Origin: Escherichia coli
GTDB taxonomy: Bacteria > Pseudomonadota > Gammaproteobacteria > Enterobacterales > Enterobacteriaceae
Direction: 5' to 3' (one strand)
Length of the DNA: 64,000 nucleotides
Assembly (NCBI RefSeq): GCF_045037415.1
Contig: NZ_CP173438.1
Shown: positions 16,007 through 16,620 of the stretch, in pieces
How the letters are laid out: every line of letters begins with the position of its first letter
How positions within the stretch are numbered: position 1 is the first letter of the stretch
The notes under the pieces: model-generated
The model's database searches: none
Told to the model about the DNA's origin: nothing
The model's input: the letters and a program-made list of their open reading frames with translations, nothing else
Position numbers and translations under genes: made by a program

Positions 16007-16565
16007 TTTTTCTGATGGTTATTGACATAATTATATTCAGGGGATTATCGGATGATTTAAATAAAAAGCAATGATGAGGAAAATATACAAATGAATAATG
16101 TATTTTTCAGGGGAATAGATACAGTTGTATCATTTTAGATATTGTTTGGCCTCTTGATTATTTTTCGGGAGAGGGCGGCATTATCTGGTGAGAGAATTTG
16201 GCATGAAACTTAAAATAATAACAGGATAAGCTTCACAAATTTGCACTTTTAAGAAATTGGGTAGTATGAGAGCCTATTAAGATATTCATGAAACTTATTG
16301 TCCGGGCTTCCACAAAAAATTATTAATTTTTCTACTAATTAAAAGGTTGTGTGTTTTTTGTACAAGAATTATATAAGCGTAGCGCCCTGTTGTGATATTG
16401 AAATGTTAACATAACCAAAATAAATTGATTTATAGAATATATAAATGAAATTCATTAATGGGGTATATGTTTAATATATAAATAAGATGGATAGCTTTGA
16501 TTGAGGGATATTAACGGTTTACTCATTGTCTCAGGCTTCACTGAAACGGGTAAGGAGGCGTAAAA
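16007..16565 (-). promoter_or_regulatory. AT-rich upstream region of the tssB operon (probable T6SS promoter/regulatory region)
   Basis: About 560 bp of non-coding, strongly AT-rich DNA between tssB start and the tRNA terminator; no ORFs; no specific operator recognised. Confidence 0.5.
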
Positions 16566-16602
16566 ACGAAAAAACCGCAAGCTAATAGTCGCTTTGCGGT
16601 TT
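16566..16602 (-). terminator. Rho-independent terminator of the tRNA-fMet operon
   Basis: Minus-strand hairpin AAACCGCAAAGCGACTATTAGCTTGCGGTTT followed by T-run, just 3' of the last tRNA. Confidence 0.7.
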
Positions 16603-16620
16603 GTCAGCATTCTAATAAAT

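What the first reader, a model, noticed from the sequence alone, without database searches (positions are those of the whole stretch)
16007..16620. Long AT-rich leader upstream of tssB, sandwiched between the T6SS operon and the tRNA terminator
Seen: about 560 bp of non-coding DNA with markedly lower GC than the flanking genes and many A/T tracts. Inference: this is the likely promoter and regulatory region of the sheath operon and, by composition, a plausible H-NS-bound silencing region. I could not identify a specific operator (no clear Fur box).
Basis: inference. Interest (0 to 1): 0.3.

Follow-up and report, generated by a model that had tools for sequence, protein, structure and literature searches.

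The report
H-NS-bound AT-rich T6SS promoter region
This is the AT-rich control region in front of the sheath genes of an E. coli type VI secretion island inserted at a tRNA gene; published work shows the silencer H-NS binds here, so it is mostly ordinary, apart from an untested RNA fold that could hide the first gene's ribosome-binding site.

Summary
The 635 bp between the tssB ATG (15985, minus strand) and the tRNA-fMet gene metV (16621) have 31% GC, the lowest of any 635-bp stretch in the 64-kb window (51% overall). They contain no conserved ORF and no Rfam family. The window is ExPEC/ST131-type E. coli. All DNA left of the tRNA 3' end is island DNA: it is absent from K-12 and present in 1337 of 5426 complete E. 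coli genomes.

Published CFT073 ChIP-seq lists tssB as bound by H-NS and StpA; that allele is 97.8% identical here. In APEC, deleting hns de-represses hcp2A and clpV2 of this T6SS2 cluster, and Fur has no effect. No Fur, sigma-54, CpxR or other operator stands out above shuffles. The promoter is not mapped, and there are three sigma-70 candidates.

New details:
- The distal ~415 bp vary about as much as tssC synonymous sites, while the proximal ~160 bp are conserved.
- Homology with the nearest relative (Entomohabitans, 95.6% DNA identity) stops abruptly 24 nt before the ATG.
- A 13-nt perfect anti-Shine-Dalgarno sequence lies 68 nt upstream of the ribosome-binding site (1 in 5000 shuffles). 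It could silence translation of transcripts that start further upstream. This is untested and is weakened in one allele clade.

Overall this is a known kind of region, of modest interest.

The parts
16621..16697 (-). tRNA-Met(CAT), the last gene of the metZ-metW-metV initiator-tRNA operon. Its 3' end is the exact junction between core genome and island.
   Evidence: ARAGORN and Rfam. K-12-like genomes match only from 16618/16619 onward.
16562..16602 (-). Intrinsic terminator of the tRNA operon: an 11-bp stem with an 8-nt loop, followed by UUUUUUCGUUUUU.
   Evidence: Fold and sequence. The 60 bp 16561-16620 are shared at about 90% with a different metV island (PTS/MalY genes) but not with K-12.
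16145..16561 (.). Distal AT-rich spacer (32% GC). It is specific to E. coli T6SS islands and poorly conserved. It is the likely platform for H-NS/StpA binding and a buffer between the tRNA operon and the T6SS.
   Evidence: 10.9-19% of columns are variable among 6 alleles (14-19% over 16200-16539), about the level of tssC third codon positions. No conserved ORF. No match in plasmids, phages or other genera. H-NS ChIP from the literature.
16368..16396 (-). Candidate promoter P2: ATCACA-17-TATAAT, predicted start near 16361, leader about 376 nt.
   Evidence: 10 of 12 consensus positions. Against it, the last T of the -10 (16368) is mutated in 2 of 12 alleles.
16427..16435 (.). IS1 target site, duplicated on insertion in some ST131-like strains.
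   Evidence: The BLAST pieces overlap by 9 bp in L003. L001 has IS1 at the same position together with a deletion of T6SS core genes.
15986..16144 (-). Conserved proximal block (28% GC): the most likely core promoter plus 5' untranslated region of tssB.
   Evidence: 4.4% of columns are variable, against 9.6% at tssB and 21.6% at tssC third codon positions. There is no variation at all in 15950-16024 among 12 alleles.
16082..16110 (-). Candidate promoter P1: CTGAAA-17-TATATT, predicted start near 16075, leader about 90 nt.
   Evidence: top PWM score on the tssB strand. The -10 hexamer is invariant in 12 alleles; position 16109 in the -35 varies.
16071..16083 (-). 5' arm of the inverted repeat. 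On the mRNA strand it reads UUUUCCUCAUCAU, an anti-Shine-Dalgarno sequence.
   Evidence: the repeat finder pair I2. Only 1 of 5000 dinucleotide shuffles reaches 13 nt. C16076A occurs in most alleles of the 91-92% clade.
16030..16060 (-). Candidate promoter P3: TTAAAT-19-TATAAT, predicted start near 16023, leader about 38 nt.
   Evidence: Both hexamers are invariant, and the only two variable sites of 16025-16074 (16052, 16040) fall in its spacer.
15990..16002 (-). 3' arm of the inverted repeat, AUGAUGAGGAAAA. It contains the tssB Shine-Dalgarno GAGGA at -12 to -8.
   Evidence: It lies inside the 24-nt stretch shared with Entomohabitans.
16009..16009 (.). Sharp homology breakpoint. From here leftward, tssB-tssC-tssK are 95.6% identical to Entomohabitans teleogrylli. 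To the right there is no similarity.
   Evidence: blastn; alignment.
15485..15985 (-). tssB (vipA), the small sheath subunit and first gene of the operon. It is itself GC-poor (40-46%) and H-NS-bound in CFT073.
   Evidence: Pfam T6SS_VipA, E = 4.5e-51. RefSeq annotation. Composition. ChIP table.

Best explanation
The region is the upstream control region of the tssB-tssC-tssK-tssL-ompA-hcp operon of the E. coli T6SS island inserted at metV (called T6SS2 in APEC). It has four layers.

1. Next to the tRNA, a strong intrinsic terminator ends the highly expressed, co-directional initiator-tRNA operon.
2. About 415 bp of weakly constrained, 32%-GC DNA follow. Together with the GC-poor tssB gene, they are coated by H-NS/StpA, which keeps the operon off in rich laboratory medium. 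This step is shown in CFT073 and APEC by published work.
3. A conserved proximal block of about 160 bp carries the real sigma-70 promoter and the 5' untranslated region. This is inferred; there are three candidate promoters and no mapped start.
4. A 13-nt perfect anti-Shine-Dalgarno sequence lies 68 nt upstream of the ribosome-binding site. Any transcript that begins at or upstream of 16083 is predicted to hide the tssB ribosome-binding site, while transcripts from a proximal start leave it more open. This step is inferred and carries the lowest confidence.

No dedicated operator (Fur, sigma-54 enhancer, CpxR, PhoP, CRP, IHF) is recognisable. De-repression most likely works by counter-silencing of H-NS under host-like conditions such as serum.
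For: - Composition and position.
- Island status: K-12 matches only from the tRNA 3' end, and the region is present in 1337 of 5426 genomes.
- Gene identities.
- Terminator.
- H-NS and StpA occupancy of tssB in CFT073 is 0.32 and 0.28 (cutoff 0.07). It persists at 0.165 in the hns mutant and falls to 0.066 in the hns stpA double mutant (PMC9765446 Data set S1). The CFT073 allele is 97.8% identical.
- hns deletion raises clpV2, hcp2A and hcp2B in APEC XM. Iron and Fur have no effect, and 50% duck serum induces vipA2-hcp2A (PMC5874247).
- Conservation gradient: 10.9-19% variable columns distal, 4.4% proximal.
- Promoter candidates.
- Anti-SD repeat: with 1 in 5000 shuffles reaching its length. 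Predicted probability that the SD is unpaired is 0.04-0.10 for starts at or upstream of 16083, and 0.2-0.6 for starts at 16078, 16075, 16037 and 16023.
- A long AT-rich upstream stretch recurs in front of tssB in most enterobacterial relatives, although the sequences are unrelated.
Against: - No transcription start site is known.
- Promoter-like sites are no more frequent than in shuffles (5 found against 3.2 +/- 1.8).
- The ChIP values I could read are per gene, not for the intergenic DNA itself. They come from another strain, and the per-gene IP/Input sheet was truncated in storage.
- The APEC hns experiment measured hcp2A and clpV2, not tssB.
- The best H-NS high-affinity motif match (8 of 10) is at chance level.
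- For the anti-SD: the local fold is only modestly better than shuffles (z = -1.5). The 91-92% allele clade carries an uncompensated C16076A mismatch in the middle of the helix. The nearest relative and about 70 other tssB loci have no comparable pairing. If the real start is at P3, the arm is simply upstream DNA.
Confidence: 0.72

Rival explanations
1. Passive junction DNA. The AT-rich stretch is simply what was left at the island/tRNA junction. It contains a promoter somewhere in the last ~100 bp. H-NS binding is a by-product of composition with no selected regulatory role, and the inverted repeat is a coincidence.
For: The distal 415 bp vary about as much as tssC third codon positions. The sequence is replaced wholesale in Entomohabitans, with a sharp breakpoint at -24. 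IS1 insertions and deletions are tolerated there. No operator motif stands out above chance. The helix is imperfect in one allele clade.
Against: The proximal 160 bp are more conserved than synonymous sites. An unrelated AT-rich stretch of similar length sits at the same place in Entomohabitans and in most enterobacterial relatives, which suggests the property is retained. The 13-nt complement to the ribosome-binding site is a 1-in-5000 event.
Confidence: 0.2
2. The sheath operon has no promoter of its own. It is expressed by read-through from the strong metZWV tRNA promoter, so the region is a true long leader.
For: The tRNA operon and the T6SS operon are co-directional and 635 bp apart. No promoter is mapped.
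Against: A canonical terminator with an 11-bp GC-rich stem and a U-tract lies in between. The T6SS cluster is silent in rich medium, when tRNA operons are most active, and it responds to hns. Long transcripts are predicted to sequester the tssB ribosome-binding site.
Confidence: 0.04
3. The region encodes an unannotated product, either a small protein or a small RNA (for example one driven by the + strand site TTGAAA-17-TAAATT at 16398-16426) that regulates the T6SS.
For: The strongest sigma-70-like site of the region is on the + strand. Several 20-50 codon ORFs exist.
Against: No Rfam family other than tRNA is found, even at E <= 1. None of the ORFs in the distal region is conserved across 12 alleles. 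AT-rich DNA is full of spurious promoter-like sites.
Confidence: 0.04

Closest known systems
H-NS-silenced T6SS clusters in enterobacteria (Salmonella SPI-6, Brunet et al. 2015; EHEC T6SS, PMC5363993 and PMC13141884; APEC T6SS2, PMC5874247)
   Same: Horizontally acquired cluster next to a tRNA gene. There is an AT-rich upstream region, H-NS (and StpA) occupancy, silence in rich medium and de-repression in hns mutants. In EHEC, hns deletion raises mRNA but not protein, pointing to an added post-transcriptional layer, as the anti-SD would provide here.
   Different: Here the promoter is not mapped, and the AT-rich DNA is wedged directly behind a tRNA operon terminator. In EHEC the tssB operon has a bidirectional promoter shared with hcp3, whereas this region has no divergent gene.
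EAEC sci-1 T6SS promoter (Fur plus Dam epigenetic switch, Brunet et al. 2011) and the APEC T6SS1 Fur boxes
   Same: A sigma-70-type control region directly upstream of tssB in an E. coli T6SS island.
   Different: There is no Fur box (12 of 19, at chance) and no GATC site at all in the 635 bp. Fur and iron do not affect this cluster in APEC.
Fold-back inhibition of IS10 and IS50 transposase translation (Davis, Simons and Kleckner 1985; from my own knowledge)
   Same: A sequence upstream of, or across, the native start is complementary to the ribosome-binding site. Transcripts entering from outside fold back and are not translated, while native short transcripts are. Here the 5' arm (16071-16083) overlaps the predicted P1 start and lies upstream of P3.
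   Different: Nothing is demonstrated here. The arms are 68 nt apart, the native start is unknown, and the gene is a secretion-system sheath subunit, not a transposase.
Leader-level control of tssB/vipA in other species (Qrr sRNAs on the V. cholerae vipA leader; RsmA on P. aeruginosa T6SS leaders; from my own knowledge and the review PMC10482370)
   Same: Translation of the first sheath or structural gene is the controlled step. Three GGA motifs cluster within 20 nt of the AUG.
   Different: No sRNA or CsrA binding was tested. GGA motifs at a Shine-Dalgarno site are expected anyway.

Membership tests
H-NS-silenced xenogeneic promoter region | AT content well above the genome average | tested here: met
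   31.3% GC against 50.9% for the window; the lowest 635-bp stretch of the window.
H-NS-silenced xenogeneic promoter region | Lies in horizontally acquired, variably present DNA | tested here: met
   The junction is exactly at the tRNA 3' end. The DNA is absent from K-12-like genomes and present in 1337 of 5426 genomes.
H-NS-silenced xenogeneic promoter region | H-NS occupancy in vivo | not testable with these tools
   Published ChIP-seq in CFT073 gives tssB 0.32 (cutoff 0.07), a 77-nt gene listed just before it (presumably the adjacent tRNA) 0.10, and StpA 0.28 (PMC9765446). The allele is 97.8% identical. The values are per gene, not for the intergenic DNA itself.
H-NS-silenced xenogeneic promoter region | De-repression when hns is deleted | not testable with these tools
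   Published qRT-PCR in APEC XM shows clpV2, hcp2A and hcp2B go up in the hns mutant (PMC5874247). tssB itself is not reported.
H-NS-silenced xenogeneic promoter region | High-affinity nucleation motif (TCGATAAATT-like) | tested here: inconclusive
   The best match is 8 of 10 at 16427-16436, equal to the shuffle mean of 8.04.
Sigma-70 promoter | -35 and -10 hexamers with 16-18 nt spacing, upstream of a mapped start | tested here: inconclusive
   There are three candidates on the tssB strand, but the number of hits is not above shuffles and no start site is mapped.
Fur/Dam-controlled T6SS promoter (EAEC sci-1 type) | Fur box overlapping the promoter, with GATC sites | tested here: not met
   The best Fur match is 12 of 19, and 91% of shuffles do as well. 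There are no GATC sites.
Sigma-54-dependent T6SS promoter | TGGCAC-N5-TTGCW at -24/-12 on the gene's strand | tested here: not met
   The best match is 8 of 11, on the opposite strand, at chance level.
Fold-back inhibition element (IS10 type) | Upstream sequence complementary to the ribosome-binding site | tested here: met
   A 13-nt perfect complement covers the SD at -17 to -5. It extends to about 21-27 imperfect pairs, and 1 of 5000 shuffles reaches it.
Fold-back inhibition element (IS10 type) | The native transcript starts inside or downstream of the 5' arm, so only foreign transcripts fold back | not testable with these tools
   The predicted P1 start (~16075) is inside the arm and the P3 start (~16023) is downstream of it, but the P2 start (~16361) is upstream. 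No experimental start is known.
RNA thermometer (fourU/ROSE type) | SD-masking helix predicted to open between 30 and 42 C | tested here: not met
   The predicted probability that the SD is unpaired stays at 0.02-0.06 from 25 to 42 C for long leaders.
Known RNA families (Rfam 15) | Covariance-model match | tested here: not met
   Only the three tRNAs match at E <= 1 in 15400-17200.

The most novel reading that the evidence does not exclude
The 13-nt anti-Shine-Dalgarno sequence, placed across or upstream of the native start, is a fold-back insulator. Transcripts that leak through the strong initiator-tRNA terminator, or that arise from spurious promoters in the AT-rich DNA, cannot translate tssB. 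They would then be prone to Rho-dependent termination. Only transcripts from the proper, counter-silenced proximal promoter would make sheath protein. This would add a second, post-transcriptional lock on top of H-NS for a T6SS, using a trick so far known mainly from insertion sequences.
Probability: 0.18. Interest if true: 0.55.

Novelty: new member of a known kind. Interest (0 to 1): 0.3.

Why it matters
The metV T6SS island is carried by about a quarter of complete E. coli genomes, including ST131, CFT073, 536, APEC O1, NC101 and Nissle 1917. It is linked in the literature to virulence and to interbacterial killing, yet it is silent in the laboratory, which hampers its study. A clear anatomy of its control region gives concrete handles for switching it on. 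These handles are the terminator, the H-NS platform, the conserved 160-bp core with three testable promoters, and a possible ribosome-binding-site mask. It would also explain why removing H-NS may not be enough for protein production, as was reported for the EHEC system. Otherwise the region is a textbook case of xenogeneic silencing.

Tried and rejected
- **Rfam scan** at E <= 1: only tRNAs.
- **Consensus scans** for Fur, H-NS, sigma-54, CpxR, PhoP, CRP, IHF, RcsB, SlyA, OmpR, Fis, Lrp/LeuO, ArcA and FNR: none better than dinucleotide shuffles. An RfaH ops site was also looked for in this leader. There is none here; the only perfect one in the window is at 9514-9525, upstream of tssH.
- **Small ORFs:** none conserved among 12 alleles.
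- **att-like repeat** of the tRNA 3' end elsewhere in the window: none. The short repeats D3 and D5 are 11-12 nt AT-rich matches and were dismissed.
- **Direct repeat** CATGAAACTTA x2: not conserved between alleles.
- **Search for the same DNA elsewhere:** no match in plasmids or phages. There is also none among 80 tssB loci from other species, except 24 nt at the ribosome-binding site in Entomohabitans.
- **Comparable anti-SD pairing in about 70 other tssB loci:** none, so comparative covariation support is unavailable.
- **RNA thermometer idea:** rejected on predicted melting.
- **Literature search** for a mapped start site or a dissected tssB promoter of this cluster: none found. The CpxR site published for APEC T6SS2 is at hcp2B, not here.
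- **ChIP supplement:** The per-gene IP/Input sheet is truncated before this locus.

Full report
**What is there**

The window is E. coli of the ExPEC/ST131 type; the region is 100% identical to strain MNCRE44 and many ST131 genomes. On the minus strand the order is as follows.
- The core genes mltA, tcdA and csdE lie further right.
- Three tRNA-Met(CAT) genes lie at 16917-16621. From established knowledge of E. coli K-12 these are metZ, metW and metV, the initiator tRNA operon.
- Then comes the region in question.
- Then come tssB (15985-15485), tssC, tssK, tssL, an OmpA-family gene and hcp, all with Pfam support and matching RefSeq annotation.

RefSeq starts tssB at the ATG at 15985. Homologues from other genera match from residue 1-2 of MADSFQNE.

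**Checking the observation**

GC is 31.3% against 50.9% for the window. No other 635-bp stretch of the 64 kb is lower. The number of A/T tracts is what this composition yields by chance.

The tRNA terminator is real. The sequence AAACCGCAAAGC...GCUUGCGGUUU followed by UUUUUUCGUUUUU lies at 16602-16562 on the minus strand. The simple scanner missed it, probably because of a bulged A.

**Where the island begins**

K-12-like genomes match the window only from 16618/16619 onward, and they have amiC next to metV. Everything left of the tRNA 3' end is therefore accessory DNA. The full region occurs in 1337 of 5426 complete E. coli genomes, always once. Carriers include CFT073, 536, APEC O1, NC101 and Nissle 1917.

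The 60 bp next to the tRNA, including the terminator, are shared at about 90% with a different metV island that carries PTS, MalY and KpsF genes. The T6SS-specific AT-rich DNA is therefore 16009-16560 (552 bp, 30.6% GC).

**Relatives**

A scan of one genome per species with TssB found one close relative, Entomohabitans teleogrylli (98% amino-acid identity). Everything else is at or below 78%. DNA identity to Entomohabitans is 95.6% over 3.5 kb of tssB-tssC-tssK, and it stops abruptly at window position 16009, 24 nt before the ATG.

Upstream of that point Entomohabitans has another non-coding stretch of about 600 bp with 27-36% GC and essentially unrelated sequence. Most enterobacterial tssB loci likewise have upstream DNA that is 10-20 points poorer in GC than the genes. 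The property of a long AT-rich run-up recurs, but the sequence does not. The E. coli sequence has no match in plasmids or phages.

**H-NS**

In CFT073 ChIP-seq (PMC9765446, Data set S1, sheet 1E), tssB is in the list of H-NS-bound genes. Its occupancy is 0.32 on a 0-1 scale with cutoff 0.07. It is 0.31 without StpA, 0.165 without H-NS and 0.066 without both. StpA occupancy is 0.28. The neighbouring entry is a 77-nt gene, presumably the adjacent tRNA, at 0.10. tssC is not in the stored list. This fits a patch centred on the AT-rich DNA and spilling into the GC-poor tssB gene. The CFT073 layout is identical and its region is 97.8% identical to the window.

In APEC XM (PMC5874247), deleting hns raises clpV2, hcp2A and hcp2B of this cluster. 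Iron and Fur do not affect it, and 50% duck serum induces vipA2-hcp2A.

The best match is 12 of 19, as in shuffles, and there is no GATC site, so this is not a sci-1-type switch. Scans for sigma-54, CpxR, PhoP, CRP, IHF and others were all at chance level. The published CpxR site of APEC T6SS2 is at hcp2B, not here.

**Internal anatomy from conservation**

Among six alleles, 10.9-19% of columns vary in 16145-16620 (14-19% outside the 55-bp bin 16145-16199). Only 4.4% vary in 15986-16144. The comparison values are 9.6% at tssB and 21.6% at tssC third codon positions. With twelve alleles, no site varies in 15950-16024. The distal 415 bp thus behave as weakly constrained filler, and the proximal 160 bp are under constraint.

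There are three sigma-70 candidates on the tssB strand.
- **P1:** CTGAAA-17-TATATT, 16110-16082, predicted start near 16075.
- **P2:** ATCACA-17-TATAAT, 16396-16368, predicted start near 16361.
- **P3:** TTAAAT-19-TATAAT, 16060-16030, predicted start near 16023.

P2 loses the critical last T of its -10 in two alleles. The hexamers of P3 are invariant, and the only two variable sites nearby fall in its spacer. None of this is proof, because promoter-like sites are no more common here than in shuffled sequence.

**The one unexpected feature**

The repeat finder reported a perfect 13-nt inverted repeat, 16071-16083 against 15990-16002. On the mRNA strand the upstream arm is UUUUCCUCAUCAU. The downstream arm, AUGAUGAGGAAAA, spans -17 to -5 and contains the Shine-Dalgarno GAGGA. 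With flanking pairs the helix reaches about 21-27 pairs and includes the AUG.

I kept the ribosome-binding site fixed and shuffled the upstream DNA while preserving dinucleotides. Only 1 of 5000 shuffles gave a complement of 13 nt within 200 nt.

The predicted probability that the SD is unpaired is 0.04-0.10 for any transcript starting at or upstream of 16083. It is 0.21 for a start at 16075, 0.50 at 16078, and about 0.6 for starts at 16037 or 16023. It barely changes between 25 and 42 C, so this is not a thermometer.

The upstream arm overlaps the predicted P1 start and lies upstream of P3. The arrangement therefore resembles the fold-back inhibition that protects IS10 and IS50 transposase genes from outside transcription (my own knowledge). 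Here it could protect against read-through from the tRNA operon or against spurious starts in AT-rich DNA.

Several points count against it.
- The overall fold is only z = -1.5.
- Five of the six sampled alleles of the 91-92% clade carry an uncompensated C16076A in the middle of the helix. About 246 genomes fall in that identity band.
- Entomohabitans and about 70 other tssB loci have nothing comparable.
- If P2 is the native promoter, the structure would be a constitutive mask that needs an unknown opener.

I give this reading about one chance in five.

**Verdict**

The interpretation (control region of the sheath operon, H-NS silencing, no Fur box) is supported, mainly by published data on near-identical DNA, although the promoter itself is not mapped and the word 'leader' is unproven. 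This is a new, fairly well-documented member of a known kind, the xenogeneically silenced T6SS control region. The possible ribosome-binding-site mask and the sharp module boundary at -24 are the only points of wider interest.

Noticed in passing
window 9514-9525 (minus strand): A perfect RfaH ops element, GGCGGTAGCGTG, lies 48 nt upstream of tssH/clpV (6830-9466). It matches the cryptic RfaH-bound locus c3392-tssH reported for CFT073. The T6SS island therefore has a second, RfaH-dependent transcription unit after hcp.
   Followed up: partly
window 16427-16435; L003 1967-2664; L001 3248-3945: IS1 is inserted in the AT-rich DNA with a 9-bp target duplication in strain AZ184. In isolate 30821_1#330, IS1 sits at the same position, and the T6SS genes from tssB onward are deleted as far as hypothetical genes and vgrG.
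   Followed up: partly
L098 1501-1796 (E. coli IAL7254); window 16482-16560: Only the first 79 bp of the AT-rich DNA remain. They are followed directly by a truncated AAA ATPase (tssH) pseudogene and vgrG. This is an independent deletion of the sheath and baseplate genes with one breakpoint in this region.
   Followed up: no
window 16009; L012 2977: Homology with Entomohabitans teleogrylli (95.6% DNA identity over tssB-tssC-tssK) ends abruptly 24 nt upstream of the tssB ATG. No other sampled species has a TssB above 78% identity. The T6SS gene module and its upstream DNA therefore have separate histories.
   Followed up: partly
window 16561-16620; L005 3001-3059; L006 3001-3026; L004 2430-2502: The metV trailer and terminator come in at least two versions. 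One is shared by T6SS-island and PTS/MalY-island strains, and a different one occurs in K-12-like strains where amiC abuts the tRNA. metV is thus a three-state insertion hotspot.
   Followed up: partly
window 16398-16426 (+ strand): The best sigma-70-like site of the whole intergenic region (TTGAAA-17-TAAATT) points away from tssB, towards the tRNA terminator. It may be a spurious or antisense promoter typical of AT-rich DNA.
   Followed up: no
window ~581-2586: This is a second GC-poor patch (minimum 31.8%) inside the T6SS island. It covers ORFs downstream of vgrG, one of which has a weak sub-threshold M23 peptidase match. Other genes of the CFT073 island region (c3394, c3405-c3408) are also listed as H-NS-bound.
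   Followed up: no
window 15989-16006 (minus strand): Three of the only five GGA triplets on the tssB-sense strand of the 635 bp cluster within 20 nt of the AUG (GUGGAUGAUGAGGAAAAGGAU). This is the kind of arrangement bound by CsrA/RsmA on other T6SS leaders.
   Followed up: no
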